In this document: one piece after another, positions 908 to 43,045 of the stretch
Position numbering within the stretch: position 1 is the stretch's first letter
Layout of the letters: every line of letters starts with the position of its first letter
Source: Callorhinchus milii
Lineage: Eukaryota
Direction: 5' to 3'
DNA length: 64,000 nt
Assembly (NCBI RefSeq): GCF_018977255.1
Contig: NW_024704742.1
Span: 116,066,001 to 116,130,000, forward strand
Notes under the pieces: generated by a model
Databases searched by the model: none
What the model was told of the DNA's origin: nothing
Seen by the model: the letters and a program-made list of their open reading frames with translations, nothing else
Made by a program: the position numbers and the translations under genes

Positions 908-3900
908 CTATATGCAGATATTTTCATCACTCCAGTCACTGCAGTCCTGAATGTGATCTTTACAGCGACTTTTAGGAATGCAGTCGCAGTCACTGAAGAA
1001 AACTGTAGTACATTTCCAGCCAAAACAGGGAGGACACTGCAAAGCTAAATAAAAAAAATGCAATCAATTCGATTTATTGAATCCTATAATTTACAATACT
1101 TTTTTTCTTCTAATATCCAATAAAATGGTAGGAAAATGATGTTGCACCTTTGGTAGCTACTAGCAGCAACAGATGTAAATAGCAAACAAAGCTTTAAAAA
1201 ATAATGGTTACTAAAATACTGCATACATTTTTATTAATAGCTATTGTTGAGTGTGAAAGACCTGCCTCAGGAGCTGAGCAGCTGTAGGTGCTACCATTCA
1301 TTTGGAGTTCTATTTTAAACCAGTACAATTTAATGGACAGCAAAGTCACCATTCTTCACTTTTGATCCTTGATAATGGGTGTTGACCACAGCAAGCTGAG
1401 TTCAATCCTGTCTTCATCCAGTATCTACTCATGCACCTGGAGCAGGAGATGCTAGACAGTGAGTAAGAACATGGTAGATTTTCCTCACTAGCATAGCGAG
1501 CTTAGGTCAACCATGATAAATGTTGAGCTGGCTTATTCAGTACATGGGATCTCCAGCGTCTGTATGGTTCTGCTCAAGAGGCTCCAGGCCATTCATGGTC
1601 TCAATAATCAATTTAAGAGTATGAACAATGTCTAAGGCAGCATATGGTTGCAAGATTGCAGATAAAAAAGGGGATGCTTAAAATGCTTCAGGAAATATTT
1701 AATTGCAGATGTTTAATGCAAATGTTTGTCTATAATTATAATAGTAATAAATAATGCTTGCATTTTATATAATGCCTTAGCATGGTACAGCTAATTTACA
1801 TACCTCAATGTCCCACAAACAGCCATGAAGTGAATGACCAATTTTATTTGGGGGATTATCAGCCAGAAACTCCCTTTTCTTTTCAAATAATGCTATGGGA
1901 TCTTTAATATTCAACTGAACAGGCAAATTGGATCTTGGTTTACTGAGTCATCTGATGGATGGCAACTCCAAAAATGGAACACACCAACAATGCATGGGAG
2001 TCAGCCTCAACTATGAGCTTGAAGTACTGATGTGGGGCTTGAACCCATAACCTGTCTCAGGCAAGAGTGCTACCACCTAAATCAGGCTGATAACCTGCTT
2101 TAACATTTGATGATAAATGTTTTAATTGAACTACAGTATTTGATAATTGAATAACACAGTGAACAAACAATCCTTTAAAATGGCTATATTACCTGATTCA
2201 TCTGAACAGTCTCCACAGTCATTTTTTCCATTACATTTTTTGTCTATGTAAGTCCAGGATTTCTGGTCACTGCACAAGAAGACCAAGTTTTTAGGGAGGC
2301 TCATAGGTAGGTTGTCTGATCAGGAAAAAATCAAAACAATTTAATTTCTATAATTAACACAATTTCTATATTTTTTGTAGAAATCTCAAATGCACTTGCT
2401 GCCAAATAATTTGATTATTTTGGGTGCAAGCCTTCAATGTCCAGTGACTTGGGACATCCTTCTGACATGAAAGGCACTATATAAATGTAATTTGTTGTGG
2501 TGGTTAATATGCTCTTAGATAACAATGGGATCCATGTCACATTAAATGTAAGCAAAAGGAATTTAAGCAAGACATTTTCTTCCTCCTTTTTATTTTCCTG
2601 ATAGTCTGGTGGCTGAGCACATTGAAGCTGTGCATCTAATCATTAAGGCTGCTGAGGACAAATATGGAGCCATCAACTGGTGTCATTTGTAAATTATTTG
2701 TTAAATGAAATGCAAACATCTAAAACAGTTGATGACTAATAAAATGTCACTCTGGTGTACTCTGGAAACTCAAATTAATGAAATACATTGTTATGTCATA
2801 TAACAATAATAATCCTTGCATTTGATATAGCGCTTTTTACTATGTCTCAAAGTGCTTCACAGAATATACTGTAAAGTGAATTGACTGTATATTTGTGAGC
2901 GAAACATGGCAGCCAATTGCGCACAGCAGTGTCCCACAAACAGCGGGCATTGAAATGACCAATTTATTATTTTTTTGAGGGATTTATTATCAGGCGTGTG
3001 GAGTGAGGAAACTTGCCCAAGGTTTCGCCCTACTGGGAATCAAACCCAGGTCTCCCGCTTGCACGGTGAGTGCTCTAACCACTGAGCTACAGGGCTCCTA
3101 TGTTCCCTGTCACACACAAATGCACAAGGCATATTTCTGGTCATTGCACAAGAAAACTACTATGTTCCAAGGGAAGGATTTACATAAAGTACTCAGCAAA
3201 AGAAATTTCTGTGTTTCCATGTTGTCCATTGCATAACTGCATAAATCAAACTATTTAGTGGCTTTCCAGGAGAGAAGGAAGCTGTTTAAACAAATAGTAG
3301 TACTTAACAAGCATAGCAACCAGAAAGCATTTGTTGAAATACACAGCACCTTTCTGTAGCTGACACATTATGTTGCCAGAGTGATACACTCATTTTCCCC
3401 AGATAACAATTGCAAACCATGCACACATTTAACAATGGCCTTTTGAAATTACCTGAGGATGACTTTAACTTCTCCTGCTTTTGACTCATTGCCAGAACCC
3501 ATTAAGCATTTCCAATTCTGACGAAAGATCATACCCAAAACATTAATCTAGCTTTCACTTTCAGATGCTGATCGGTCTGCAGTGCAATTCCAACACATTC
3601 TGCTTTTGTTACAGATTTTCAGCAGTCCTGACTTTTCTTCTTTTTTAATCTGCTCAGTAACATTTTTATTCTTAGTTTCAAATATTACTACGAGTACAGT
3701 TTTAAGTATAGACCCATATACAGGGTATTCTCTTGTCACCTGAAGTAACTGATTTCTGGGTTCTTTCAAATGTGGACTGAAAAGCCTGAATAATTTACCG
3801 CGACCCTTCAACACACATCCTCATCAAATGTTGAGTTAAGAACAAGGATTTAACTCAATAAGCAATGACGTAGAACCATGATTTTCAGCACCTGCTTTTC

Positions 3901-6900
3901 TTGATGAAGCAGCTCTTACTTCCAGAGTGCAATTTTGCGCCAAAAGCATGAAAGTAGCAAATTTAGATCGGCCATGAAAGATACTGGTTATGTACTTTTA
4001 CTGGAAGATATGATTATTTAATAAAAAGTATGTGTTCTTAATGTCCAGTAAGTGAAATTCTACAAAAAATGAAGCAAATTCAAATCATCCAGTAACCTTT
4101 CAAAGGAACCCCAGATTTTTTGGTGGTCAGCCCAATATCTGACACATGTGGTAACCCATCACCATGCACTCAAACCAGACATATGTATGTCATCTTCTCA
4201 TGGAAATTTCCATGTGTCTGAAATGAAGTGTACACTCTCTCCCTGGAGGGACTCACCCTCTCTACCTAATTCAGAGAGTATAAAGTACAGGTTGACGTGA
4301 GTCATGGTTTGTAGACTCCAGAAGGTGTGTTTGGGTACGCTTGGAGTTAACCAATGAAAACCAAATATCTTGTGAATGAGAGCACTGTCTTATACATTTT
4401 TCTCTGCTTGTCTGGCTAGACCCACTGTTATGGTTTTGACTTGCAGGGTCAACAGGAGCTATGTGGGAAGAATTCCTGCTCCCAGTGATTGGTTTACCTT
4501 TCTAAGTCCTGCCAGTGAGCCAGCACAGCTGGTATGTCAGCAGCAGTGCCCTGGAGTATTGTGGACCTGCCTGGCTCAGGAACTGTACTACCAAGACTGC
4601 CACAGAGAGCTGACTCGATTCTAACATTACTTTGCCAAGCTCATCACCTTGGAGCACAGCTCATCTTTTTGCACCCCCCTCTCCCCACCCCGAGGAAAGT
4701 GCTATAGCTGTTTGCTAGTGTAAATGTAGAAACTCATGTAATCTACATACCACAGTATAGGTTTGCTTCATCCTCTCCATTACTGCAGTCCACTTTGCCG
4801 TTGCAAATCTGCGTAGACATAAGGCACGTTGTGCGATCATCACACAAGAAGCCGTTTCTGTCTGAGGTGGTTTTACATTGCCGGGTTACTGCAGCAAGAC
4901 ATAGACAGAATAAATGCCCATTGATTTGCATGCTGAGAAGCTGTCTTGTGTGAAGCTAACTATATAAATGCATGTTGTTATCATTACAGCACCAAGAGAA
5001 ACTGTGTCTTACATCACATTACATGGAGAATCATGCATTAAAGGAACTGGGTTCCCAAATACAAGGAGCAATAATTATACACAGAATAGCAGAAGCAGTG
5101 TTGAGTGCAAGGCAGCAATCAAGTCTTAAATTACATGGTCATTTGAAGAATCAAGTCTTCTAATGACATTAGAACAAAGCTCAATGGATTTTCAACTATT
5201 ATTTAAACCCAAAATAAGATTCAAAATCCTAAAAAAAATTTTTGTATATAATGTGCAATTCTTGTGTAAATTTATTGCACTGTGTTTTCTTGGGCAGACA
5301 CTAGTTCAATGTGCTCAGTGTAGTTGAAGCAGAACAATGCTCACACTGAGGGATTAATGATTGACATCAGATTGAGATAATTATTGTGGGATAACCAAAG
5401 GTAAATTAATGGGAAGCAACACAGTTAGAATACAACAGATCACTATTGCTCCATTATCTGAATACTGATTATATTCCCTTGGCAACATACGAGTCAGACA
5501 CAGACAACACAATCCAGCCTGCACCTCAGTGGTGATAACCAGGTGGAGTTACATGAGCCCAGGTTAGTTAGGGAATCAGAACCCAGCCTCACCCATAAAA
5601 ATATTGATCTTTCCTGCTCCAATTCTCTTGGGTTATACTATCCTAAAGCCATGTTATCATGCTGGAGTTCAGTTCCACAGCTACTCTGGTACATTGCATA
5701 AATAGCTGGAATTGTGAACTAACAAAATATTTTTTTATTTCACATACAAACATCTTAAGCAGCAGAGAAAATATTTAAAAAATCGAACAAGAAATTGTTA
5801 GGTAGGTAGTATAAAGTGGCCACAGAGTGGTTTTGTACTTGATTCTCTGAGGAATGGGGAGCCAGTGAAGCCAGGCAAGCATGGGGGTGATTGGTTCGCG
5901 GAGCCTTGGGAGAGGACACGAGCTGCAGTGTTTGGAATAATCCACAGCTTGCAGAGGGAAGAGTTGGGAAGTACAGTTAGCAAGCAGTTGGCGCAGTCAA
6001 GGCAGGATGTGTTGAAAGCATGGATAAAGTTCTTGGCAGCCTGCGGTGAGAGGCAATGGCGGAGGCAGGCAATGTTGCGGAGGTGGGGAAAGGCGGAACG
6101 TGTCACAACACAAATGTGGAGCTTGAAGGATAGCCGAGGGTCGAACAGGACACCGAGGTTCCATATTTGCTCAGGAATTCCTAGGAACTCAATGATCTTG
6201 ATGTGACAATACATATTTTAAACTTGTTTAATACATTTATATCTTATTATTGCATACTTAGCTGTTTGGGTGGTATCCCAAATATAATCCCACAAGTTAT
6301 AGCAGCTGCAATTGCCCCAAAAATGAACAGGAGGAGAATTTCGATTAAAATGCATCTTCTGGTACAGCAGCTCCTGGAGTCTAATACAAATATTAGTTAT
6401 TCATCTTTTAAACACTCGAGATCTGTGCACTTTAAATATTCAGAAATCAAAATAAGGTCTGTGTGAAAGATAATTGCAACTCAAATTATACCTGTCGTTC
6501 TTAATTGCTAAATGAATGTTATATGCACAAACAAAGCATTCAGTTAATTTCACTACACAAAATTAATACTGAAAGAGGAAGTCATGCCATCAGGATCCCA
6601 TTTAAAGGTCAGCTACAATGAATTATGTCTAATTGCTGCATCCTTTTAATGTGTATTTTCTTTTTTTTGTTTAGCCAAAAACATAGATGAGATAATGGGA
6701 GGAGAGTGGTTGACCTGTGTTGATGTATAGTGTGAGCTGACAACATCAGTAATCACATCCACTGGGTACGGGCACTAACCCAGGAGGCAGCAGCAAGCTT
6801 TCAACTGAGGGTTCATTAAAGAAAACATATTCATGTTATAATTATGCAGATTTTTTTCTGGACACATTGTATATTATATAGAATATATATTTATATATGG

Positions 6901-8293
6901 GAATAGAGGGGTATAAGTGAGGGGAATAGGAGGGGTGACAGCTTTGTTGAGTGGTAACAGGGCAGACTGGTTGGGTCTAATTTCCTGTTTTGGTATTGTA
7001 TCACTCTGTGCAACTATGTATCTATATAGGTGATGTCATCTGCAGGATTGGGGTCTATTTCCATATAAACAAGGATGACATTCTGCCTCTAACATCAACT
7101 CCAGGACCACTGCTGTTCTAATAATGTTCTAATTCCGGTCAGATGTCAACAATGTGCTATTACTGATGAATTCTCACATCACAGTGATAATTCTCACATC
7201 ACACTGTTAATTCTAATATTGGTGACAATTCTCAAATCTCCAATGTGTGTTAAAATAAACCAATCTTCCTCAGTTGTGAAACAATTAACAAAATATTTTC
7301 TACCTTCCTGTTTATTGTGAGTTAAAGTGACTTGTGATCCGAAAAGAGAATCGTTATCAGGATTCACCACGTCCTATAAGGGAAGATAAACAATTCAGCA
7401 CGTAGAAACAATAGCTTCTCCAATTAAATTTTAAGTGGCCTACCTGCTCTATATCTCACTGTCCAGCAATCCCCAAAATAAAATTGGTCATTCGCTTCAT
7501 AGCTGTTTGTGGAACATTGCAACATGCAAATTCGCTGCCATATTGTCCCACAAAACACACGATCACTACACTTTATAGTATATTCTATGAAGCACTTTGG
7601 GATCATCCTCCAGATGTAAAAAAGACATTAAACCAAAGTAAGGCTTATTATTATAAAATTTTGCCTAAAAACCTACCTCTTTGACTGTACCTAAAGTCTT
7701 CTCCCCTTCCTTCCTCCCTCCCCTTTCTACCTCGCTTGGTGTCCAATCCGGGCTCTTTGTGGAGTCTCCAAGCTATTATACATGAAGGTGCTATGTAAAT
7801 GCAAATTGTTGTTTCTTGTCTCTGAGGCAGTGTCAGCAGTCTCTGGTTCATGACCTACTAGGTCCTATTTACCCATTTAGTTCCAATGAGCCAAGCTGGC
7901 TGGTCTAATTTCAGGACTACAACAGAGCCATCTGGCTCAGAAATCAGAGACGATTGAGACTGCCTCAGATAGTGGGCTTGATTCCGACAAACCATTGCCA
8001 AGAACCAGCTCAGCTCCAAGGAGGCCCCACTAATAATAATAATCTTATTATTCCCACTTAGGAAGATAGTCACCAGTCACTGAAGTTAATTTCTAGAATC
8101 TGGTAATACTCCAAAAATTCTAACGATAATAGTTTGTTACGTACATAAATTCTAATAAAAAATTTGCAAAAACACTGAATGAGAAATTACTTTATCCTTC
8201 ACAAAAAATTGCAATTCTAAAACATTATGTAAATACATTGAACTGAAGGTACTTTACCTTGGGTCTTGATGGATAGACTCTACTTGAACTCAT
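908..8293 (-). CDS. LDLRAD1: LDLRAD1-like type II membrane protein with three LDL-receptor class A (LDLa)-like modules, 208 aa, 6 coding exons
   Basis: Hand-assembled minus-strand exons 8293-8258, 7373-7304, 6380-6258, 4888-4751, 2315-2193, 1044-908. All junctions are GT-AG, phases 0,1,1,1,1, total 627 nt ending in TAG. Protein: MSSSRVYPSRPK/DVVNPDNDSLFGSQVTLTHNKQE/DSRSCCTRRCILIEILLLFIFGAIAAAITCGIIFGIPPKQL/ITRQCKTTSDRNGFLCDDRTTCLMSTQICNGKVDCSNGEDEANLYC/DNLPMSLPKNLVFLCSDQKSWTYIDKKCNGKNDCGDCSDES/ALQCPPCFGWKCTTVFFSDCDCIPKSRCKDHIQDCSDWSDENICI*. Motifs CCxRR+TM, GFLC, NxCGDCSDE, CPPC and CDCIP...CSDWSDE match LDLRAD1 as I recall it. Orthologue versus paralogue is unresolved. Confidence 0.88.
1740..2090 (-). 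mobile_element. Older Deu-type SINE (reverse)
   Basis: Reverse complement of Deu motifs (TGCTATGGGATCTTTAA) and head (GGGCTTGAACCCATAACC...GAGTGCTACCAC). Confidence 0.65.
2804..3098 (-). mobile_element. Older full-length copy of the same SINE family
   Basis: GGAAACTTGCCCAAGGTTTCGCCC...GTGCTCTAACCACTGAGCTACAGGGCTCC head and AATAATCCTTGCATTTGATATAGCGC tail on plus. Confidence 0.85.
4114..4645 (-). mobile_element. 3' UTR/terminal copy of the 50530-51851 element
   Basis: Reverse complement is colinear with 51320-51851, including terminal CATGTGTCAGA..GGCTGACCACCAAAAAA. Confidence 0.65.
7821..7969. repeat. ~150-bp element bounded by ~29-bp imperfect inverted repeats (MITE-like)
   Basis: TCTGAGGCAGTGTCAGCAGTCTCTGGTTC (7821-7849) versus the reverse complement of 7940-7969, TCTGAGGCAGTCTCAATCGTCTCTGATTTC. 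Confidence 0.7.
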
Positions 8294-8600
8294 TTCTCAT
8301 GAATACGAATAGAGATGATCAGAAGTGTGGGAACAGATAACTGATGAGAAAATATAACACAAAATTCTTGATGAAAGTACTTCAGATGTGGGGAAGTTGG
8401 TGAGTTACTTGGTGACCTGCGACTCCAGCTGATTCCTTTGGAAAAATGTTGCTTTCATTCATCACCCAGCAACGAAGAAACTCAACAGATCACTTACCTG
8501 TACATTGTGATTAAAGACAAACACTGCCCCTCCTCCAGGAAGCTGAGGGTTAAACATTTCCAAATGATGTTTCTGCAATATATACATCTCTAACCTGAGA
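8294..8600 (-). other. Probable 5' UTR of the LDLRAD1-like gene: non-coding exon ending at 8498, intron 8497-8341, exon resuming at 8340
   Basis: Minus strand has a consensus donor CAG|GTAAGT at 8498/8497 and a pyrimidine-rich acceptor TTTTCTCATCAG| at 8341/8340, 47 nt upstream of the ATG. TSS not determined. Confidence 0.45.
8404..8473. promoter_or_regulatory. Two RFX X-box motifs upstream of the LDLRAD1-like ATG
   Basis: 8404-8416 GTTACTTGGTGAC (reverse GTCACC-A-AGTAAC) fits GTNRCC-N(0-3)-RGYAAC exactly. 8461-8473 ATCACC-C-AGCAAC has one mismatch. Confidence 0.55.
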
Positions 8601-22100: not shown

Positions 22101-22704
22101 ATATTTTATGAGCAGAAATACTTTAAAATTAAATTGTTGCCTGATATACAAATTAAGTTTATTTTTATACTTACCTTACCAATAAAAGAACAAGACAGCA
22201 TCAGTAAAATATAGATGATTGTCATAGGTGAAAGATTAATAAGGACAGTCTAGAATTTGAAGGTACATAACATTGTATAATTATCACCAAAACATTCTAT
22301 ACACAGCAAGAACAAGAAAATAATTAAATTGATTGCAATTGGATAATAGATATGTATTATTAAGGAAATTGCTGGCAGTATTTAGCATATAAAATGCACA
22401 TATATTACTTACCTTTGAATAATACAGAAGCCACTTCTAGGTCAGAGTTTACCTGATCCTGAATGTTTTTACTGTCCTCTTCATTCAGCGACTTTACAAA
22501 TCGAGAGCACACGTTCATATCAAACCTATTGGGCAGGACAAATTTCATTCCCATGGCAACATTCTGAGAGGAACCATCTTCTTCATTTAGGTCAGTACGT
22601 GGTTCTACTTTGATGTAAGGAATTCCAGAAAAGGAAGAATTGTTGTCATTCGGATCTCCAGTTGACTGAATTTCAAAGTTTGGATTTTCAACTGAGGCCA
22701 TCAT
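11438..22704 (-). CDS. ANKRA2: Ankyrin repeat family A protein 2 (RFXANK paralogue), 314 aa, 8 coding exons
   Basis: Exons (minus) 22704-22413, 21935-21777, 17548-17483, 17284-17187, 15590-15465, 15155-15089, 13017-12937, 11493-11438. All GT-AG, 945 nt ending in TGA. Diagnostic peptides: [156 protein letters not shown]. The first coding exon probably starts at acceptor TTTCCAG|22806. Confidence 0.97.
11701..12104 (-). mobile_element. CR1 3' fragment; further CR1 3' fragments at ~16375-16620(+), 24170-24330(+), 37760-38170(-), 57190-57560(+), 61520-62090(+)
   Basis: TAGAATACATTAGAATAT terminus and GGCCATTTGGCCC hairpin. Reverse strand carries CR1 ORF2 C-terminal motifs (DLIEVFK-like, WNxLP-like). 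Confidence 0.75.
13096..13128. repeat. (GT)n microsatellite; others: (TA)n(CA)n 25602-25630, (GT/GA)n 32905-33095, (TA)n 47459-47481, (GT)n 60833-60853
   Basis: Direct reading. Confidence 0.95.
13645..14055 (-). mobile_element. Internally deleted L2 fragment
   Basis: [26 protein letters not shown] joined to FKTRLKTLL and the L2 tail. Confidence 0.8.
14731..14917. repeat. Nested inverted repeats in ANKRA2 intron (outer ~23-bp IR, inner 55-nt hairpin)
   Basis: Outer: ATTTCCCACATTAACCTTGAGAGAG versus CTCGCTCAAGGTTAATTCGGGAAAT. Inner hairpin at 14772-14826. Confidence 0.75.
17626..17940 (+). mobile_element. Full-length young tRNA(Ala)-derived SINE with Deu-like body and L2-type 3' tail
   Basis: Head GTCCTGTAGCTCAGTGGTTAGAGCACTCGCTTTGCAAGCGAGAGACCCGAGTTCAATTCC with A/B boxes and TGC anticodon loop. 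Body CCTTGGGCAAGTTTCCTTACTCCACAC...TGTTTGTGGGACATTGCTGTGCGCAATTG. Tail GGGACGTCCTCCCGACGTGAAAAGCGCTATATCAAAATGCAAGG(ATT)n. Near-identical copies elsewhere in the window. Confidence 0.9.
17948..19992 (+). mobile_element. 5'-truncated CR1-clade LINE (decayed ORF2 RT region plus 3' UTR)
   Basis: Frameshifted peptides [100 protein letters not shown]. Ends in ATTCTATGATTCTA, a CR1-type terminal repeat. Confidence 0.92.
20968..21260 (-). mobile_element. Deu-type SINE fragment (reverse)
   Basis: AATAATCCTTGTATTTGACATAG tail, GTCCCACAAACAGCCATG, TAGTGCCATGGGATCTT. Confidence 0.7.
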
Positions 22705-22854
22705 TGCTCCACTCACTTAGTGCAATCTGCTACTCCATCCATTGGTACAGTAATGAATTACAGCAGGTAGATCAAGTCAGCCACTTTTGAATACACAAAA
22801 TTAAGCCTGGAAATATACACATAAATATAACTATCATAAGTCATAATCCCTATC

Positions 22855-27698: not shown

Positions 27699-30600
27699 AT
27701 GGCTTCGTACAAGCCTACCGCAATTCAGAGCTGCCCAAAACCTGGAAAGAAGATTACTCAGGACACCGTGTACTGGAAAAGTTACAAGGTAGGAGCAGCG
27801 CAAAATGTTTGGTGATGCCGAGGGTGGTGTGGGGGGCGAGCGAGGGTGGTGCGGTCGGGGGGGCGAGCGAGGGTGGTACGGTGGGGGGGCGAGCGAGGGT
27901 GGTACGGGGTGGGGGGGCGAGCAGGGTGGTGCTGGGGGTTGAGCGAGGGTGGGCCAGGGGGCGGCGAGTGAGGGTGGGGCGGGGGGCGGCGAGTGAGGGT
28001 GGGGCGGGGGTAGAGAGCGAGCGAGGGCAGTGGGGCGGGGAGTGATTGAGGGTGGTGGAAAGCAGGGAGTGATTGAGAGCGGTGGGGGGCAGGGATTGAT
28101 TGAGAAGGTGGGTGTGGGGGGGAAAGAGTGATAATGGCTATATTAATTAATAATCTCAAGACATTGCTTAATTTTGAGTTCCTTGGTATAAAATGTGGAC
28201 GAATGAATTCTGTTAAAACTTCGCCTTGCTCCCTCCCTTGCCTAGTTCAAGGCACAACTCAATATGCTCCTTTTCAAACGTGCCTTCAGCTGCCCTTCTA
28301 CCTCTCTGCCCTCCCTCATCCCAACCGTGGCCTTCTACATTCGGGTCCTGATCCCTGACTGTTCAGCACCTTGGGATGTCCTCCTGATGTGAAATGTGCT
28401 TTACAAATGTAATTTTGTTGTTATTGTATAAAGTTCTGGATTTGAGCCATTCTCATTAGCTGAAAAATACCAGAAATGACAATTTTTCTTTCTTTCAGAC
28501 TCCAATTCAGATAAAGGAGTTTGGTGCTGTAACAAAAGTCGATTTTTCTCCAATTGCTCCATACAACTATGCAGTAACAGCTTCTGCAAGGGTGAGTACA
28601 GGGTTTAGTATGCATTTGTCTGAAAACTATTGAGCATCCTCAATTTGATTTAGTTATATCGTATAGAGAATGTTACCCATAAGAACAATAATATTACATG
28701 TATTTCTATACAAACTTGTCTACTGTATTTGATAACATGTAATTGTTGCAATGCAAGTGTAGACAGGTGTGGGAGTAAATATTTCAAATGAACTATTTCA
28801 TTGAACCTGTGGTGCTAATGTATTTCAAAATAATGCAAATTCTTGATGGACTAAAGAGCAAATCAAAGGCCCTCATTAACATGTGGCTTGCTACATGTGA
28901 TTTTTTGTTATGCATTCAGATGATGCCTTTCACATCAGGAAGACATCTCAAAGTGCTTTGCATCATTTACTGCAGAGTATAGTGACATTGTATTTTGTAG
29001 GCAAACATTACAGCCAGTTTGTGCGCAGAAATGCCCGACATACAGTCATGAAGTGAATAACCCTTTATTATCTGAGGGATTGTTTGTCAGGACATTTGGA
29101 GAAACTCCCTTCTCCTTCAAATGCTGTTGTGAATTTTCAGTTGATACTGAGCAACCTTACTTGATTTTAAATAAGCAAAAGTATAGAACTTGAGTAATTA
29201 TCCATAATTATAATAATCTTTGTATTTGATATAGCGCTTTTCGCATCTTCTAGATGTCTCAAAGTGCTTCACAGAATATGCTGTAAAGTGAATTGACCAT
29301 ATATTTGTGGGCGAATCTATTAATGTATATGTATTTTAATAATTGTTGGATTATTGTTTTGACAGACTCTTGTAAAAATTCTAACAACAGGTGCTTGCTT
29401 TCTAGGTTCACATATATGGTCGGTATTCTCAGGAACCTATAAAAACGTTCTCCCGGTTTAAGGATACTGCGTACTGTGGTACATACAGAGAGGATGGAAA
29501 GCTGCTTGTTGCAGGCAGTGAGGATGGTGTTGTCCGTCTCTTTGATCTTGGCGGCCGAGCAGCACTCCGCGACTACAGAGGACATACAAAGTAAGCTTAT
29601 TATTGAGGAAGAAGTAACCAAACTGTAGGGTAACGAAATGTTAGCTCTGCTGCTAAAATAACATTAAACACGGTTGGATATTGCAATCTGGAATCTTTTT
29701 TTCTTTTGAGTTGTAATGTTATGAGAAATCAACAGAAAATTTACAGGATTACTTTTCTTTCCCTTGCAGAGGAGTTCATGTCACTGCGTTCACATCTGAC
29801 AAATATCGGTTGATGTCTGGGTCAGATGATTACTCGGTCAAACTTTGGGACATTCCAACCTCAACAGAAATCTTCACCTTAACAGAGCATACAGATTACA
29901 TCCGCTGTGGGTGCACCAGTAATTTAAATGCAGACCTCTTCGTTACAGGTAGGTAGTTCTGTGCTTGGTGGCAGTACATGAACAAAATGTAATATTTACC
30001 GCTGACCATTTGTCTCAATCTTTGCAGCTAATGATTGCGTTCATATCGAATAGTAAACCTCTTTAAAGAATTGGAAACATGATAGAATTAATCATTGGCA
30101 AAAATGTACAAAGATGACCTAATAAATGCTAGTCAGCACAAATTCAGAAGAGATAGATTTTGTCTGACCAATCTCACAGGCTTTCATAGAATCATACAGC
30201 CCAGAAAGAGGCCATTCGGCCCATTGGGTCTGTGCCGGCTCTTTGAAAAGAACTTCCAAATCAATCTCACTTCCCCGCGCTCTCCCCATAGTGCTGCAAA
30301 CTTGTCTCCCAAAATAATTATCTACTCTATCAAAAGCTGTTTTCGAATTGGCTTCCACCACCCTTTCAGGTAATGCATTCCAGATCCGAACAACTCGCTG
30401 TTTGAAAAAAATGTCTCCTCACCTCCCCTCTGTCTCTTAACAACTATTTTAAGTCGGTGTCCTCGGGTTACCGACCCAGCGACCAATGGAAATAGTTTCT
30501 CCTTGTTCACCCTATCGAATCCCCCCATAATTTTGAAAACTTCTATTAAGTCTCCTCTTAACCTTTTCTGCTCCAAGGAGAATAATCCTAACTTCTCTAG

Positions 30601-33600
30601 GTTCTCCTCATGACTGAAGTCCCTCATTCCTGGTACCATCTTGGTAAATCCTCTGCACTCTCTCCAATGCCTTGACATCCCTCCTAAAGTGTGGTGCCCA
30701 GAACTGAACACATTACTAGCTGAGGCCTAACCAATGTTTTATAAAGGTTCATCATAACTTCCTGACTTTTGTATTCTATGCCCCTATTTAAAAAGCCTAG
30801 TATCCCGTATGCTTTTTTAACAGCTTCATCTACCTGTCCTGCCACCTTCAAAAATTTACTTATATGAACTCAAAGATTTACTTAAATGAATGTTTGAACA
30901 GGCACCATCACAAATTAACTGTAGAAGCCATAGTTTCTCAAACACTTCCAAAAAGTGTTTGAGAAAGTACAACATGAAGATCTCATTCACAGAATGTCAC
31001 TGGCTATTAAGGGTAAGATGTGGACATTCATTTAAAATTAGCTGAAGGAATGAAGCAGAGGGCATTATTAGGGGAGATAGACCAAAATGATGAGGAGGGA
31101 CAAAGTATTAAGTAGGATACCACATGGACCCCTCCTGTTCCTGTTTGACCTAGTTCACAGACACAATGTAAGATAGTTAAATTTGCAGATACACCAAGTT
31201 GGGGACAACTGGATGTGGAGGTGTTTGCAAATGTCTTACAAAGAAAGCTTGATAGGGTATGCACATGGGTTGATGACTAGCAAACCACAATCAATACAAG
31301 GTACAGCATACAGGAAGTATGAGTTGCATGTTTTCCATGGTTGGGATAGAACCTGCCAAAGGTGGTTAGAGACCAAAAGGTGTTGACTGTCCTGAATATC
31401 ACCTTGTTATATCAATATGAGGCAGCAATCCAAAAGGGAGGCAGGATGCTGATATATTGCCAAATCAATTGAGTTTAGTTACCCAGAGTTTAGATCATAT
31501 TCAAGCTGTGCAGTGCCCTGATCAGACCACAATTGGATTCTGGCTTCAGATTTGGTCAGTCACTCCATGACTGTTTGAGGGATACGGCTGGAAGGGTGCA
31601 AATTGGTATTCACCCGCAAAATACACAAAATATACCACTTTGTGTGACCAAGGGTAGGTATTCTGGAGAATGGAGATTAAATGGAATGAATGGCCTTCTT
31701 CACCCAAACTTTGCTTGTGAGTGGTAATATCCATTGCAGAAGGTGGAAATAAATTGCTGTCCTTGTATAGCAATGAGAAAAAGGTTGAATTGAATCGACT
31801 TTTCTGTATAACCTCTAATTTTGTTTTCTCTTTTCATTGCCTCATAGGGTCATATGATCACACAGTGAAGGTATTTGATGCACGAGCAGATAGTTGCGTG
31901 ATGACTATGGAACATGGCCAGCCAGTAGAAAGTGTGCTGCTTTTCCCATCTGGTGGACTTTTAGTGTCAGCAGGTCGATATGCTTTTTTTTGACAATTTT
32001 CTACTTCAGTGCGATTTGTATAGCTGCATGAGGTTTGTTGAGGGCAGAGAATTGTATAATAATGGAGGTAAATTTCATGAAATGTTTAGCAAAGGGCCAA
32101 CATAATCCTGTATAATCTTCTTATCTAAATGGCATTTAACCTCTTAAGTGATTTGTGCTTCTAATTCTTGAAACAAGTAATGCTTTATTAAGACCCCTAG
32201 TGTACAACTTTCCAACAAGTATTTTTGTTGATTTTATAGTTGCTATGTAGTATTTAAGTGAATGAATTGTGGTTTTAAGATCCCTGTTTTTTAATCTTAG
32301 CATTAAAAATAACAACAAATTACACTTGTTACAAATTACACCCTTCACGTCGGAAAGACATCCTGGGGTGCTGGGACTCGATGATAGCACTCGATGATAG
32401 TTTATTTTCCATAGCAATTAGTATATTCATGTACCATGCATTTCTGATTCTGTTGAGCATTTTAGTGGAGTGTATATTGTTCACTGAAATCAGTCCTCCC
32501 TCCCTCCTCCGCCAACCCCATAATTGGTATGTTAATGATGGTAGCTGTTCAAATATGGCAATTGGGTTTTAATAATAATAATAATAATAATAATAACCCT
32601 CGCATTTGATATAGCGCTTTTCACGTCGGGAGGACGTCCCAAAGCGCTTCACAGAACACACTGTAAAGTGAACTGACTGTATATTTGTGGGCGAACGCGG
32701 CAGCCAATTGCGCACAGCAATGTCCCACAAACAGTCGTAGATTGAAAATGACCAATTTAATTATTGTTTTTAGTTTTGGAGGGATTATTATTAGGCTCTG
32801 TGTGGAGTAAGGAAACTTGCCCAAGGTTTCACCCTCTGCCTGGAATTGAACTCAGGTCTCTCACTCGTAAAGCGAGTGCTCTAACCACTGAGCTACAGGA
32901 CTCCACAGTGAGAGCGAGTGGGTGAGAAAGAGAGGACGAGAGCGTGAGAGATGGTGTGCGTGTGTGTGTGTGTACGTGACAGGCTGCGTGTGAGAAATAG
33001 AGTGTGTGTGAGAGTGTGAGCGTGTGTGTGAGTGTGAGCGTGTGAGAGAGAGTGTGAGCGTGTGAGAGAGAGAGAGAGAGAGAGGGAGGGAGGGATAGGA
33101 ATTGGGGTGTAATGCCTCTCAAACTCCAACGCTGTCACACAGCTTCAGTGCAGTAAATCCGCACCCACACGTACACACGTCCGCGCCCGTAGTGTCAGAT
33201 CCAGGCTGTGCTGGGGGGGGTTTGTGTGGGGTGGTGGTGGGGGGGAAGAGGATTATTTTTATAATTATATAATTATAATATTATAATTTTATAATTATAA
33301 TAGGATTATAATTGCAATATCAGAATTAGTTACGTTGCTTTGAATCTTGCAAAGCCTACAAAGTGTTCTGAAACTTTCTAAACATTCTACAGCACTCTCC
33401 AATTTCAGTGCTAAATTGTGTTTTTGAAATTCTGAATGGAAGTTTTACCATTTTGAGAATGCGTAAACTTCCCATGGACTCTTCCTAATTGCTTGTAATT
33501 TCAATTTTAAAGGTGGCCAGTTTGTGAAAGTGTGGGATATGTTGAAAGGAGGACAGCTACTGGTTTCATTACGAAACCACCACAAGACTGTCACCTGTTT

Positions 33601-36600
33601 GTGTCTGAACAGCTCGGGACAGAGGCTGCTTTCCGGATCTCTTGATAGGTGGGAGACTTTTTCTTTTCATCAACTGAATTAGACTGGAGTCCAATACCAC
33701 AAGGTCTCATACGAAATTTGTTATTTTGGAAGTTTACTGCTGAAAGAAAATTATGCTAGGTCCAACCCTGTAAGTGTATATATTCTTAAAATCCTGTATA
33801 TGTACACTGGTTTTGTAGTTGGTATGAATTCCACTTATTATAATTTAAAATGTATTTTGTGAAACTAGTAATCCTTTAAGACCAGTGGTGTACAGCTTTT
33901 CCAACAAGTATTTCTGTTTATTTTATAATTGCTATGTAGTATTGCTATGTAGTATTGCTCTGCTCTGATCGCCTCATCATCCTGGGCGACTTCAACCTAC
34001 ACTTCACCCCCTCCTGCTCCACCTCCTCGGACTTCTCCTCCCTCCTCTCCTCACTCAACCTCTCCCTCCACATCAATTCCGCCATCCACGGCCACCCACT
34101 CGATTTGGTGATCACCCGGGGCCTCAGTGTCTCAGATGTCACCATTACCGATAAGGCCGTCTCCGATCACACTTCATCTCCTTCACCACCTCCACCCCCC
34201 TCCCTACCTCCACCAGACCCACCACCATCTTCTACCGTCTCTGGAAGAAGTTACCCCCACAATCCCTAACTGCTGCCTTGGAGTCCTCTGAAAACCCTCC
34301 CTTGATGCATCGCAGCTATCAAGCTACCGGCCCATCTCCAACCTCCCCTTCCTGTCCAAGGTTCTCGAAAGAGTCGTCGCCTCCCAGCTGCGCTCTTTCC
34401 TCTCCACCCACTCACTTTTATAACCCCTCTAGTCTGGTTTCCGTGCTGCCCATAGCACAGAAACCGTCCTGGTCAAGGTCACTAATGACATCTTGACCAG
34501 GGCTCCCTCTGCCTCCTCGTCCTCCTCGACCTATCGGCCGCATTCGATACGATCGACCACTCTATCCTCCTCCACCGCTTGTCCTCCCACCTCAACCTTC
34601 AAGACCCTGTCCTTGAGTGGTTTAGGTCGTACCTCTCCCACCATCTTCACTTTGTCTCTGCAAACGGCTTTTCCTCCATCCTGCGCACTGTCTCGTGCGG
34701 TGTCCCTCAGGGCTCTGTCCTCGGTCCCCTCCTCTTCACCCTCTATATGCTCCCCCTTGGTGACACCATCCGCAGACATGGGGTTAACTTCCACATGTAT
34801 GCGGATGACAACCAACTCTACCTTTCCTCTTCTACCCTCAACTCCACGACCACCGATGTCCTGACAGCTGCCTGTCCGACATCGAGTCCTGGACGAGAGA
34901 CAACTTTCTTCAGCTCAACGTGCGAAAAACCGAGGCCCTCCTGATTGGCTCACGTCAGCGCCTCCGCACCTCAGGCGCTGACACCATCAGCATCCAAGGC
35001 TGCACTCTCCACCTCTCAAAGCCAATCAGGAACCTCGGGGTTCTGTTCGACCCTGAGCTGTCCTTTCTTCCTCATATCCGCGCCACAACTGGCACCGCCT
35101 TCCATCACCTCCGGAATATCGCCAGACTACGGCACTACCTCACCCCTCACGCTGCTGAAACTCTGGTCCACGCCTTTATCACCTCAAGGCTGGACTATGG
35201 GAACTCTCTCCTCGTCGGCCTTCCCGGCACCTCCCTCCACAAGCTGCAGGTCATTCAGAACTCTGCAGCTCGTGTACTGTCCCGCACCAGGCTTCGCGAC
35301 CACATCACTCCCACCCTCGCTCGCCTCCACTGGCTCCCCATCCCCCAGAGGATCGAATTCAAGATCCTCATCCTCACCTACAAGGCTATTCATGGCCTTG
35401 CTCCCTCCTACCTCTCCGACCTACTATCCCCCCACGTACCCGCCCGTACCCTCCGTTCCTCTGGCTGCTCCACATCCCCCGCCCCAACCGCCCTACCATC
35501 GGTGGTCGGGCTTTCAGCCTCTCAGCCCCGAGGCTCTGGAACTCCATCCCCCAGTGCCTTCACCTTGCTTCCTCCCTTTCCTCCTTCAAGGCCGGTCTCA
35601 AGACCTTTCTCTTTGACCGTGCCTTCAGCTACCCTCTCGTCTCTCTACCCCCTCCTTGCTCCCTCCCTTCCCCTCACCCTGACCATTTCCCCCCTGCTCG
35701 AGTGCCGACCCAACTGTCCAGCACCTTGGGACGTCCTCCCGACGTGAAAGGCACTCTATAAATGCAATCTTGTTGTTGTTGTATTTAACTTGTGTACTAA
35801 ATAAACTCTTAATTTATAGACATGTCAAAATCTACAGTACCTCCACATACAAAGTAGTTCATAGCTTGGATTACACAGCCGCCATTCTAAGTCTTGCTTT
35901 AGCGGTAAGTGTGTTTTTGATATGGGTGGTTATGATGTTCAAAGGGATATTCAATGAACATAACTCAGATCTTTATATTGTGTTTGTATGTTTCTGAATG
36001 CTTATGCCTCTGTATCACTCTTGATATGAACCTGAACTTGTTTGATCCCAATATAGTAGAATATTCCCCAGTTTGCTATGGGAATGAAATTGGAAAAGGG
36101 AGGTGCGTAAATCACAAATACCATCAGATATGAATTAACATATCGTAGATGATTACACATATTTACATATAGTTATTTACAGTAATGGATTGATGCATGT
36201 TAAATGGTAACCAATTCCTTTTCAATATAGTTTTTATTTTGAATGCAATAATTTTCTGAGGCAGTAACAAAGTAATAAGTATAACTTGTTTGATACTAAG
36301 ACCTCTCAAGATTTGCATAGTATCTAAAACGTTTTATATTCACTTTGAAATTACTTGAAGTAAATGGAGTTTGTTTATTCTGCAATTTTAAAAGTCAGTC
36401 AAAGAAGTTACATTGTTTTATTTTAGTGTAGAAACACGATTGCTTTCCTCCCACTGAATGTGGAACAGGTCAGTGTCCCAATGGTGCAGTGTATAATTAG
36501 TAAAACCTTATTTGAAGGGTAATAGGATGTGGATTCCTTGTCAGTGTTTCTCTACAAAGTTTTTCTAGCCTTGGCTTAGTAGCTGAATTTGAGAATAGTC

Positions 36601-39600
36601 AATAGAGGAAATTAAAGTACAGGTAATTCTGCTTTTTTGAGGGCCTTGTAGTTAAAGCCAGAGGTTTAGGAACAGGTAGCCTGACTCTTTTTTTGGATGA
36701 ATGCAAGGGCCAAATATGTTATAACTAGTATCAAAACTGGGATGTGATAAGATTGGATACACCTTTTGGGCTATAAGAAAAATCTTTATACTGCATTGAT
36801 TTATTTTTAAATGTCACTTTGTTTTAGCCTGAAGATGAGGCAATCGTTGTAGGAATGACAAACAGTGTCCTCAGTGTTCGGCATCGGAAACAGAATGAAA
36901 AGAAACCCAAAGCCACAATTAAGAGGAAAGGTCCATCCTACAGATATTTCATAAAAGGAAAAGATTACATGCCAAAGAAGGTGAGCAATTTAATGTGCAA
37001 ATTCAGTAAGGGGCTGAAATGTTTTACATTATGAGGATACAATATTAAAGTCCTAAACTGGCCTGTCTTAGATGTTGTGCTGTGTATATTTCCTGTCATT
37101 TACTACAAGGTGATATGGTCCTTTTTATTCTACGTGAAATTCACTTGTTTATTGAAATTTACCATTATGTTAAGTGAACTTTCTCTCCTGTTAAAATAAA
37201 AAAAATTGTCTGCCTTCTGATTACCCCTCGTCCTCTCGTCTCCCATCATCGGTGACCATGCCTTCAGCCACTACATCCCGAAACTCTGGAACTCTCTCTC
37301 ATTTCCTCTGCCTACCCTCCCTACCCACTTTCAACTTCCACCTAAAGACCTTCCTTTTTAATTGTGCTTACGGTCACCTTCCCTCTCCCCCTGGCTTGGC
37401 GTCAGACTCCACTGCTATCAAGTATTCCGGGACGCTGCCCCATGTGAAGGGTGCTATATGAATGCAACTTATTGTCAGTTGTGAATTTTAGATTTCTCAA
37501 TGCACTACAACTGAAAGCTTGCAGCTAACTACATTGTCAAAAGGAAAACAGTCTCCTTTAATATTTTTATTCACCATTGCATATTCCTATATACTGTGAG
37601 CAAGCTGCATTGTCCCTTTCCACTACCATTTTCTGTTCTTCCACCTTACCAGTTCCTTTCCAGTCTTACTCTCTGTTACTCTTCTTCATCCCCGTGCTTA
37701 ACCACTTTCAAATATAAATAATCTCTTTCAGCTTTCCCAATTTCTCAATATTCTGTATAGCATAGAAATTTATAACATAGCACTGGCACCATAGCAAGTT
37801 GTTTATTCAATCCCACTGACCTTCCTTATCTTTATATCCCCTTCAAGCCTCTAGCTTTCATGTACTTGTCCACTTTTGTCTTAAAGCCCACAATGGATCC
37901 AGCCTCTTCCACCTTACTTCAATAGGGCTTTCCATAACTTTACAACTCTGTGAAAAATTCTAAGCTCTACATTCATTCTTGTGATCATCTTGTATCAATC
38001 TATTTCCTTGAATCACTGATTCTGCAACCAGTAGAAATAGCTTCCCCCTATTTACCATCAGAATTTTATACACCTCTATCAAGTACCCTCTCCACCTTCT
38101 CTGCTCCAATGAAAACAGACTCAACTTCTCCAATTTCCTCATATCTACAGCTCGTCATTCCTATGTAGCAATCCATCTTGTAAAATCACTGGATGCTACA
38201 GTTTGGGGTTTTATGTAGTCTCTTAAACTCTCATCTCTGCCATTTAGTACTGCAGTCAATTTTGAGTGAGCAAATGGTTTGCAAATGCTAGTTTTCTTCA
38301 AACGTAAATAATTTAAAATATATTCTGTAAAAAAAAATTCTATTTTTATAAGTATTATTTTAAGAATCTACATTTCTGACAGTACTGAGACTATTTTCAT
38401 GTCATTTCTTTTCCTAGGATGACTTGTTGGTCAGTAGGCCAATGAAGTTACGCCTGAAGAAATATGACGAGCTGCTGAAAAGTTTCCAAGTGTCCCGTGC
38501 ACTGGATGCCGTGCTGGAGGTAAGGAGCTCTACTCTATTCAATAGGATGAGTAATCGATGAGAAAAATTTCCTTGTGCAGTTCACTAGGTTAAATGGTAT
38601 TGAAATTCACTTTGAAATAGAAAGGTTCTTCGACTTCAGTGGAAATTGCTTATTTGGAGTAGATTTATTGTGGAAAAAGTAAACTAGCCTTTAATTTGAA
38701 ACCTTGCAAAAACTTTGAGGGTATTCCACATTTTTCTTTTTTTCCCCCTTTTTGTTCTCGCTGAGCCATACAGCTGCTGCACCCATGTGGGCAGATATAT
38801 GACCAGCTCCCAGGCCTGGGATTTTTGAGCTGATAATTGGCAAGTGCAAAAGTGACTTAAGGAATGTTGTTACTTTCTTCCTAGCCACTCCTTTTAACTC
38901 AGTGCCTCGGTTAATTTCATTTGCTCCCTCCAGTAGGACATAATACAGAATGTACCCCACCATTTTGTGGCTTTGTATGTCAAAGACATGTCTTATCATG
39001 TGATTTGAAAACTTTGAAAGTATTCACAGCATGTAGAAGCTCACTTCATAATTTTCCACTTATACAGAAGGTACTGCTTCCCCTACAGAATTATCAGCAT
39101 TTGATACATCTATTAGATTTGTGGAATTATTCACTTTTAAGGAGTTTGAATAGGTAACAATGGATTAATTTCTGTATTTCTACATGTGATTTGTTCAGTT
39201 ATGTTGTATGTGATATTAAAAAATGGCTTTTGGTATTTGAAACATAGAATCTTATCCATTTGAATGGCAGCAAAGGAGACACTAGACCTGCATTAGTCAA
39301 GCATTAAAAATATCTGTTATGATCTTCCCTTTCTTTATGTATTCCCGTATTAGGAAATATTTTTTCCTTTCCTCATGATTTTGGAGATAAGATAGATCAG
39401 ACTTGGGATCAAGGTGTGCAAAACTCACGCACCATCGCTGCTTTTTACCAAATCTAGAACTCTGCTTCAATTCCTCTGCCTTGCTCCCTCCTTACCTGGC
39501 TTTAGATTTCATCTGAAGACCTTCCTTTTTGACTGAATGTACTGTCACCTTCCCCCTCTCCTTGGCTCAGTGTCAAACTCCACCACTGATAAGCCCTCCG

Positions 39601-42600: not shown

Positions 42601-43045
42601 GCCTGGAGGCCAGGTGTTTAATGTGGGGTGTTGAGCTTGTTGCCACCGGCCACTCTTAGTTGCTGACTCTGTGCAATATTGCTAGGGATCTGGGAGCAGT
42701 TTGGCTGCAATTGGTATGTGGGAGGCCAGTAATTTATAATTATGATATTTCTAGGTAATTGTATCCTATAAATTGCTTTAACGCATTCATGCAATTTTTT
42801 CTCTCGTTTTAGATATTTATAGATCTGTGGTTGGCGAGTCATCGGTAGTTGACAATCAATTTCTGAGGCTGCAGGACTTAATAGGGAGAGAAATTGACTA
42901 TCAGGAAGAACTACTTGAGGTTCTCGGAATGATGGATACACTCTTTGCTACTATAACAGCCAAAAAGGAAGCTGTTGTCCTTGGAAATCAGAACTGTGCC
43001 ATTGCTATTGGAAATAAGATGGAAGAGTCGATGGTAGTCGCCTAA
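27699..43045 (+). CDS. UTP15: U3 snoRNA-associated protein 15 homolog (SSU processome t-UTP; WD40 repeats plus UTP15 C-terminal domain), 524 aa, 12 coding exons
   Basis: Exons 27699-27788, 28499-28591, 29406-29590, 29770-29948, 31848-31973, 33513-33648, 35820-35904, 36828-36980, 38418-38519, 40002-40135, 41009-41067, 42813-43045. All GT-AG, 1575 nt ending in TAA. Peptides: [10 protein letters not shown]...[138 protein letters not shown]. Confidence 0.97.
27819..28125. repeat. G-rich minisatellite (GGGGGCGAGCGAGGGTGGT..., 22-27-bp variable unit) at the start of UTP15 intron 2
   Basis: CGAGGGTGGT recurs at 27819, 27841, 27868, ~27894 and onward. Confidence 0.9.
30060..31720 (+). mobile_element. 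Highly decayed older CR1, interrupted by 30185-30870
   Basis: [14 protein letters not shown] before the insertion. AAATTTGCAGATACACCAAGTTGGGG (KFADxTKLG-like) and CTGATCAGACCACAATTGGA (LIRPQL) after it. Confidence 0.6.
30185..30870 (-). mobile_element. CR1 3' fragment, same subfamily as 17948-19992, nested in an older CR1
   Basis: [25 protein letters not shown]...TRGHRLK, with CATAGAATCATA terminus at 30185. Confidence 0.9.
32571..32904 (-). mobile_element. Full-length copy of the same SINE (reverse)
   Basis: Reverse complement of 24482-24803, with (AAT)n at 32571-32596. Confidence 0.9.
33955..35781 (+). mobile_element. Young L2-clade LINE (APE fragment, internal deletion, RT and 3' tail) in UTP15 intron 7
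   Basis: APE motifs [24 protein letters not shown] motifs [70 protein letters not shown]. Tail GGGACGTCCTCCCGACGTGAAAGGCACTCTATAAATGCAATC(TTG)n. Confidence 0.95.
41313..41765 (+). mobile_element. Older Deu-type SINE with a different tRNA-like head and longer Deu domain
   Basis: Head GCTTGGCTCACTGGTAGCACTCTCGCCTCTGAGTCAGAAGATTGTGGGTTC. Deu-like GGTGGACGTTAAAGATCTCGTGGCACCATTCGAAAAGAG...GTGTCCTGGCCAATA. Same (ATT)n tail. Confidence 0.75.

What the first reader, a model, noticed from the sequence alone, without database searches (positions are those of the whole stretch)
8270..8293. N-terminus MSSSRVYP resembles the PKD2 RVxP ciliary-targeting signal
Seen: the 12-codon first coding exon encodes MSSSRVYPSRPK in the predicted cytoplasmic tail of a type II protein. 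Established: polycystin-2 begins MVNSSRVQP and its RVxP is a reported ciliary targeting motif; human LDLRAD1 begins MNKVFP ([K/R]VxP) as I recall it. Inference: a conserved [K/R]VxP in an otherwise divergent N-terminus may route LDLRAD1-family proteins to the cilium. The motif is short, so a chance match is possible.
Basis: partly seen in the sequence, partly recalled or inferred. Interest (0 to 1): 0.7.

Follow-up and report, generated by a model that had tools for sequence, protein, structure and literature searches.

The report
Conserved tail motif, orphan LDLRAD1-like gene
A little-studied shark membrane protein begins with a short motif, kept from lamprey to mammals, that resembles a known cilium-sorting signal; its human relative is made in ciliated cells, but delivery to the cilium itself is not shown.

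Summary
Six exons give the annotated 208-aa Callorhinchus milii 'LDLRAD1-like' type II membrane protein. Both recalled comparisons check out (PKD2 MVNSSRVQP, human LDLRAD1 MNKVFPQ). Two corrections. The gene is not the LDLRAD1 orthologue but an unstudied paralogue that groups with mouse Gm21976 and lies beside ANKRA2 and UTP15. The family motif is N-[RK]-[VIT]-[HFY]-P, not [KR]VxP: strict RVxP in 8 of 11 paralogue sequences and lamprey, but 0 of 16 LDLRAD1 proper. The motif is a conserved island (pairwise identity 0.52 against 0.16 in the flank), so it is very likely functional. For a ciliary role: same end and topology as the PKD2 signal; human and mouse LDLRAD1 are ciliated-cell genes; an X-box-like site lies 111 nt upstream of the ATG. 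Against: human LDLRAD1 stains cytoplasm, with cilium in only 1 of 10 tissue entries; it is absent from cilia databases and flagellar proteomes; RVxP/VxPx alone is not sufficient. Verdict: a real trafficking-type motif; ciliary sorting about 45%; cheap to test.

The parts
8270..8281 (-). RVYP, residues 5-8; this copy of the family motif N-[RK]-[VIT]-[HFY]-P
8258..8293 (-). first coding exon, CDS part (MSSSRVYPSRPK), phase-0 GT donor at 8257
8404..8416 (-). X-box-like (RFX-type) site GTCACCAAGTAAC, ending 111 nt upstream of the ATG; function not shown
   Evidence: consensus recalled
8283..8300 (-). out-of-frame upstream ATG whose short frame (MRNEFK, then stop) overlaps the start codon
7304..7373 (-). 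coding exon 2, divergent part of the cytoplasmic tail
6258..6380 (-). coding exon 3: conserved juxtamembrane CCTRRC and the signal-anchor helix (residues 42-70)
4751..4888 (-). coding exon 4: LDL-receptor class A repeat (PF00057, E 9.9e-07)
2193..2315 (-). coding exon 5: degenerate class A repeat (PF00057, E 0.0097, below cut-off)
911..1044 (-). coding exon 6 with stop: LDLRAD1_C domain (PF25241, E 5.3e-18)

Best explanation
RVYP is this protein's copy of an ancestral vertebrate short linear motif, N-[RK]-[VIT]-[HFY]-P, at the tip of the disordered cytosolic tail of a type II LDL-A-repeat membrane protein (shown: sequence, topology prediction, conservation). It most likely works like the PKD2 RVxP: a docking site read in the secretory pathway of ciliated cells that lets part of the protein enter carriers bound for the ciliary or periciliary membrane (inferred). 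It would be needed but not sufficient; the conserved Cys-Cys-x-Arg-Arg next to the membrane may act as a second signal (inferred). Most protein would stay inside the cell at steady state, as for PKD2.
For: Columns 4-8 have mean pairwise identity 0.515 against 0.164 for columns 9-39, with P8 in 26 of 28 and R/K5 in 27 of 28. Strict RVxP is in lamprey and 8 of 11 sequences of the window's paralogue. PKD2's RVQP sits at residues 6-9 and residues 1-15 bind Arf4 in a motif-dependent way (PMC3172256). It was sufficient to send transferrin receptor, which I recall is also type II, to cilia (PMC3044124 citing Geng 2006). Human LDLRAD1 is ciliated-cell enriched (195.6 nTPM; fallopian tube 112.4) and stains cilium plus cytoplasm in cervix, with a 'Flagellum, Endpiece' entry. 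It is in the motile-cilia clusters of 2 of 4 tissue sets. Mouse Ldlrad1 is in 39.6% of ciliated against 0.9% of other tracheal cells. An X-box-like site lies 111 nt upstream of this ATG, 1 of 3 matches in 64 kb. Most wild-type PKD2 is returned to the ER.
Against: Human LDLRAD1 (KVFP) is scored cytoplasmic in 9 of 10 tissue entries, including fallopian tube, bronchus and nasopharynx; it is in 0 of 5 cilia lists and 0 of 15 sperm or flagellar proteomes. LDLRAD1 proper has [RK]VxP in 1 of 16 panel sequences and T or I in most. RVxP alone is not sufficient for PKD2 (PMC9272769), and VxPx lowered ciliary enrichment of GPCRs in IMCD3 cells (PMC5305262). All expression and localisation data concern the other paralogue: Gm21976 was found in 0 papers and in neither supplement searched. 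A Xenopus locus named LDLRAD1 was not significantly changed in three ICD/MCI comparisons (padj 0.74, 1, 1). The X-box is not significant window-wide (16 of 100 shuffles match). The motif is altered in a bichir, a frog and a caecilian model.
Confidence: 0.45

Rival explanations
1. The motif is a real docking site, but not for the cilium: it controls ER exit or retention, apical or vesicular sorting, or binds a cytosolic partner in ciliated cells. The likeness to PKD2 is convergence on a common basic / beta-branched / x / Pro pattern.
For: Mostly cytoplasmic staining of human LDLRAD1 and absence from ciliary proteomes. The consensus constrains positions that RVxP leaves free: Asn before it in 82 of 95 models and F/H/Y at x in 81 of 95. 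T and I are tolerated at the V position. A review places RVxP upstream of ciliary entry (PMC11346432).
Against: Cilium staining in cervix and a flagellum entry; ciliated-cell-restricted expression; V or I, never T, in 33 of 33 motif-bearing models assigned to the paralogue-plus-lamprey group.
Confidence: 0.4
2. Any ciliary delivery is driven by the juxtamembrane C-C-[TS]-R-R-C element (candidate palmitoylation plus basic residues, TULP3-type), and the N-terminal motif is secondary.
For: Columns 40-45 are as conserved as the motif (0.545). TULP3-type signals such as fibrocystin KTRKIKP lie next to the transmembrane helix (PMC11346432). Palmitoylation of such cysteines is recalled, not tested.
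Against: Basic and Cys residues beside a signal anchor are ordinary topology and raft features. The cysteines are reduced in the mammalian paralogue sequences, which keep RVHP.
Confidence: 0.1
3. The conservation reflects nucleotide constraints of a tiny first exon (start context, splice donor) or alignment anchoring at Met, and the match to RVxP is chance.
For: The motif lies within 12 codons of both the ATG and the donor. In mammals and birds alternative models rejoin right after the following Gln, so that Gln may owe its conservation to the donor (inferred). A single RVxP is not rare (3.2% of shuffled tails).
Against: Exchanges are chemically conservative (R/K, V/I/T, H/F/Y). The motif keeps its form although its distance from Met (1 to 6 residues in most models) and from the donor differs between groups. 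It occurs in the first 12 residues of 1 of 69 other LDL-A proteins fetched, and that one is a family member.
Confidence: 0.05

Closest known systems
Polycystin-2 (PKD2) N-terminal RVxP ciliary targeting signal
   Same: Near-identical start (MVNSSRVQP against MSSSRVYP), motif within 10 residues of the cytosolic N-terminus, R, V and P all present.
   Different: No homology between the proteins; a single-pass LDL-A protein, not a TRP channel. Family x is mostly F/H/Y and V may be I or T. No localisation or mutagenesis exists for this protein.
(K/R/Q)VxPx motifs of polycystin-1 (KVHP), rhodopsin, CNGB1b, ARL13B and RIC-8
   Same: Same four-residue pattern near a cytosolic terminus; family members carry KVHP and RVHP themselves.
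   Different: Those named for PC1, rhodopsin, CNGB1b and RIC-8 are C-terminal; effects depend on cell type and can oppose ciliary enrichment.
Human LDLRAD1 (Q5T700)
   Same: Same architecture (tail, signal anchor, LDL-A repeats, PF25241), an N-terminal motif (MNKVFPQ), ciliated-cell expression.
   Different: A paralogue: it falls on the other side of a 100/99 split, and its gene models fuse with TMEM59 or NDC1 neighbours, whereas the window gene lies by ANKRA2 and UTP15.
Mouse Gm21976 / vertebrate 'LDLRAD1-like' proteins
   Same: Same side of the tree, shared C-terminal spacing, RVHP at residues 5-8 in the 207-aa rodent model.
   Different: Nothing functional found in print; the mouse models carry a 42-residue N-terminal extension that is probably a start-site error (inference).

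Membership tests
LDLRAD1 family (PF00057 + PF25241, type II) | LDL-A repeat(s) and LDLRAD1_C domain | tested here: met
LDLRAD1 family (PF00057 + PF25241, type II) | single signal-anchor helix, no cleavable signal peptide, C-terminus outside | tested here: met
   Helix 42-70; hydrophilic residues 1-40; N-glycan sequon on the C-terminal side in 18 of 28 relatives, though not in this protein; flanking K+R 4 against 3 is not decisive. Prediction only.
LDLRAD1 orthologue (human 1p32 gene) | groups with human LDLRAD1 in a tree | tested here: not met
   19 rows including the window, Gm21976 and lamprey are split from 26 rows including human, 100/99; seven genera sit on both sides.
Gm21976 / LDLRAD1-like paralogue | groups with Gm21976 | tested here: met
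   (profile score 224.9 against 164.0); root not fixed, no one-clade test run.
Gm21976 / LDLRAD1-like paralogue | shared neighbours ANKRA2 and UTP15 | tested here: inconclusive
RVxP ciliary targeting signal | R-V-x-P in a cytosolic terminal segment | tested here: met
RVxP ciliary targeting signal | R, V and P conserved among homologues | tested here: inconclusive
   Met in the own paralogue (8 of 11) and lamprey; not in LDLRAD1 proper (0 of 16 RVxP, 1 of 16 [RK]VxP); 25 of 28 fit [RK][VIT]xP.
RVxP ciliary targeting signal | host protein localises to the ciliary membrane | tested here: inconclusive
   Published staining of the human paralogue only: cilium in 1 of 10 tissue entries, plus a flagellum entry; otherwise cytoplasm.
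RVxP ciliary targeting signal | mutation abolishes ciliary localisation; segment sufficient in a reporter | not testable with these tools
   needs a cell experiment
RVxP ciliary targeting signal | binds Arf4 or acts with TULP3 | not tested

The most novel reading that the evidence does not exclude
LDLRAD1 and its unstudied paralogue are an unrecognised pair of LDL-A receptors or auxiliary subunits of the motile-cilium and flagellar membrane, delivered by a first-exon signal at least as old as the lamprey-jawed vertebrate split. Their natural variants (RVYP, RVHP, KIFP, RTHP) would show that the true ciliary sorting consensus is N-[RK]-[VIT]-[HFY]-P rather than RVxP, or that the paralogues split into a ciliary (V) and a non-ciliary (T) form.
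Probability: 0.25. Interest if true: 0.62.

Novelty: new member of a known kind. Interest (0 to 1): 0.38.

Why it matters
What RVxP does and what reads it is still disputed. This family offers a small single-pass protein with the PKD2-like signal at the same end, and an evolutionary allelic series (V, I, T) that can be tested in one experiment. It also gives a first functional handle on LDLRAD1, a human ciliated-cell protein with no GO process, and flags a second vertebrate paralogue for which my one search found no paper. The gene itself is already annotated and the motif class is known, so the finding is a testable lead rather than a new system.

Tried and rejected
No genome is held for this window, so the shark's second paralogue could not be looked up. 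Run search: no RNA holder listed; no read-level evidence on splicing, start site or tissue was obtained. The AlphaFold model is unreliable beyond residue 122 (pTM 0.33), so I ran no fold search. The ESM Atlas gave only the family itself for the whole protein (chordate clusters) and no usable feature hit for residues 1-75. No invertebrate member with this architecture was recognised among the hits; this is weak evidence, since many hits are unnamed. A whole-word paper search for RVHP, KVHP, KVxP, KIHP, RVYP and KVFP listed 23 papers, none on this motif by title. Supplements of the human FOXJ1-target paper could not be read, and 5 of 17 files of PMC5245798 were not searched; both may bear on regulation. 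UniRef model P0002 starts in a LINE remnant (frame 5798-6217) and lacks the tail and helix; rejected as a gene-model error. The RIFP at residue 15 of the alligator model and KTRP in P0291 are chance matches in aberrant N-termini. The group-A tally (80 rows) includes unrelated LDL-A proteins, so I used only its motif-bearing rows. One of three X-box patterns tried had 0 matches. Earlier-findings look-ups returned nothing. No complex prediction was run.

Full report
Observation. The feature is on the minus strand. The ATG at 8293 opens MSSSRVYPSRPK and is followed by a GT donor at 8257; an in-frame stop lies two codons upstream. A scan for phase-compatible exons ranked 7373-7304 first. Exons 8293-8258, 7373-7304, 6380-6258, 4888-4751, 2315-2193 and 1044-911 translate exactly to P0001, the 208-aa Callorhinchus milii 'LDLRAD1-like' protein, XP_007897997.1. 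Pfam finds LDL-A in exon 4, a weak LDL-A in exon 5, LDLRAD1_C in exon 6 and nothing in exon 3. The model has one confident helix at 42-70 and an unstructured tail. Hydropathy is negative for windows starting at residues 1-33, and 18 of 28 relatives carry an N-glycan sequon just C-terminal to the helix. Type II topology is therefore well supported as a prediction. Both recalled comparisons are right: PKD2 MVNSSRVQP (PMC3172256) and human LDLRAD1 MNKVFPQ. The start is supported by homology, not by reads.

Chance. RVxP appears in the first 12 residues in 0.65% of 200,000 shuffles of the tail, and anywhere in 3.2%. One of 1233 ATG-started 12-codon frames in the window has it (this one); two have [RK]VxP. 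Among 69 other fetched proteins, 1 has it in the first 12 residues, and that one proved to be a family member. A single match is weak; conservation carries the case.

Which gene this is. Homologues fall into two groups. In a 45-row ectodomain tree, 19 rows (window, other cartilaginous fish, a bichir, amphibians, a marsupial, bat and rodent models, mouse Gm21976, two lampreys) are split from 26 rows that include human LDLRAD1, with support 100/99. Erpetoichthys, Ascaphus, Gastrophryne, Pelobates, Sarcophilus, Castor and Mus occur on both sides. The root is not fixed and I ran no one-clade test. The window gene lies beside ANKRA2 and UTP15, whereas models of LDLRAD1 proper fuse with TMEM59 or NDC1. 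That mouse Gm21976 lies by Ankra2 and Utp15 is recalled. A search for Gm21976, LDLRAD1-like, ldlrad1a, ldlrad1b and PF25241 found 0 papers.

Conservation. I chose by hand 28 of the 322 proteins held, for lineage balance and ordinary length; this favours models with an intact first exon, and three lineage labels (catshark P0093, caecilian P0312, bat P0318) are guesses from cut-off names. In this panel columns 4-8 have mean pairwise identity 0.515, against 0.164 for columns 9-39, 0.358 for the helix and 0.461 for non-Cys ectodomain. P8 is present in 26 of 28 and R/K5 in 27 of 28; position 6 is V 12, T 10, I 6; position 7 is H 12, F 8, Y 6. Strict RVxP is in 9 of 28 (lamprey, 8 of 11 paralogue, 0 of 16 LDLRAD1 proper); [RK]VxP in 11 of 28 (9 of 11 and 1 of 16); [RK][VIT]xP in 25 of 28. 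The misses are a bichir (NTVYP), a frog (RTHA) and a caecilian (RIHT). Without selection, 95 of 147 helix-bearing models have the motif within seven residues of a Met (V 40, I 27, T 28; one is spurious). Of the 52 without, 22 have tails of 25 residues or fewer and 15 have tails of 59 or more, as expected of partial or aberrant models, and 15 are of ordinary length. The family motif is thus N-[RK]-[VIT]-[HFY]-P; V is the state in lamprey and in the window's paralogue. A second island, C-C-[TS]-R-R-C beside the membrane, is equally conserved (0.545).

Link to cilia. All functional data concern LDLRAD1 proper. Human RNA is ciliated-cell enriched (195.6 nTPM; fallopian tube 112.4, lung 6.7; PMC13096173 supplements). 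It is in the lung and fallopian-tube motile-cilia clusters but not brain or testis (PMC7331728 supplement). Mouse Ldlrad1 marks ciliated tracheal cells, 39.6% against 0.9% (PMC7182432 supplement; passage in 10.1101/735969). For the window gene itself there is one hint: an X-box-like site at 8416-8404, 1 of 3 matches to a recalled consensus in 64 kb. Window-wide it is not significant (0.20 expected, 16 of 100 shuffles; pattern fixed after seeing the hit). By hand, the chance that one of three hits lands within 300 nt upstream of this ATG is about 1.4%. Against the link: antibody HPA052489 is scored cytoplasmic in 9 of 10 tissue entries and 'Cilium, Cytoplasm' only in cervix. A further entry reads 'Flagellum, Endpiece' (its column heading was cut off). 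The gene is in 0 of 5 cilia lists and 0 of 15 flagellar proteomes. The antibody also stains testis strongly although RNA there is 0.3 nTPM, so both the positive and the negative readings need caution. The RFX3 peak assigned to mouse Ldlrad1 is 34.7 kb away, and Gm21976 was not found in that file, which was cut when stored. A Xenopus locus named LDLRAD1 was unchanged in three ICD/MCI sheets (paralogue unknown).

How it most likely works. Shown: a conserved short motif at the tip of a disordered cytosolic tail. From the literature: PKD2's RVxP is needed for ciliary delivery of truncated PKD2, was sufficient for transferrin receptor, and residues 1-15 bind Arf4. It is not sufficient in the Pkd2 lrm4 mutant, probably acts upstream of TULP3, and related VxPx motifs can oppose enrichment in IMCD3 cells or set position within the cilium. 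Inferred: the motif is a docking site read in the secretory pathway of ciliated cells, sending part of the protein to the ciliary or periciliary membrane (0.45). Nearly as likely, it is a docking site for non-ciliary sorting or a cytosolic partner (0.40). The juxtamembrane element as main signal (0.10) and nucleotide-level or chance conservation (0.05) are less likely. I put about 0.9 on the motif being under protein-level selection.

Comparison and novelty. It works, by resemblance, like the PKD2 signal; membership in the RVxP class is met for sequence and position, inconclusive for conservation and localisation, and untested for mutagenesis. Searches for LDLRAD1 (53 papers, 40 listed), LDLRAD1 with cilia (12 listed), RVxP with cilia (80 papers, 40 listed) and the motif words showed no title or abstract start that ties this family to the motif; most subscription papers are outside the library. 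Geng 2006 itself was not read, only citations of it. What I saw of each paper: passages for 10.1101/735969, PMC12737339, PMC3172256, PMC11346432, PMC5305262, PMC13428341, PMC3044124 and PMC9272769; supplement rows for PMC7331728, PMC5245798 and PMC7182432; passages and a supplement row for PMC7498320; abstract, section 7 and supplement rows for PMC13096173; listing only for PMC13720309.

Verdict. Observation confirmed, interpretation partly supported. A candidate new member of a known motif class in an annotated but unstudied paralogue. Interest 0.38; 0.62 if the family proves to be a ciliary membrane receptor with a wider consensus.

Noticed in passing
window 22405-22716 (-) and 29406-43042 (+): ANKRA2 exon and UTP15 exons (WD40, UTP15_C) lie head to head around a GC-rich stretch at about 24-28 kb; the LDLRAD1-like gene is downstream of ANKRA2 on the same strand.
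   Followed up: partly
window 6258-6380 (-); P0004, P0022, P0024, P0066, P0277, P0280, P0281, P0288: The helix exon is 123 nt with the same phase at both ends, and models from shark, bichir, marsupial and placentals skip it while keeping the motif exon, which would give a form without a membrane anchor.
   Followed up: no
P0079, P0117: The paralogue appears only as short fragments in a macaque model and one other mammal model, and no human, bird, reptile or teleost copy was seen among the named hits; repeated loss is possible but absence here is weak evidence.
   Followed up: no
window 8283-8300 (-): An out-of-frame upstream ATG (MRNEFK, stop) overlaps the start codon and could dampen translation.
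   Followed up: no
window 8497 (-): A consensus donor CAG/GTAAGT about 200 nt upstream of the ATG could end a 5' untranslated exon, in which case the X-box-like site would be intronic.
   Followed up: no
P0204 (XP_006517862.1): The mouse protein that clusters with Gm21976 is itself named LDLRAD1 by its source, and has a 42-residue extension ahead of MAAHRVHP; names do not separate the paralogues.
   Followed up: partly
window 5798-6217 (-): A LINE remnant in intron 3 was taken as the first exon by UniRef model P0002, which thereby lacks the tail and helix.
   Followed up: yes
outside the window (recalled): I recall similar N-terminal [RK][VI][HY]P starts in plant NDR1/HIN1-like type II proteins, from plants without cilia; if right, this would favour a general sorting role. 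Recalled only; one search did not confirm it.
   Followed up: partly
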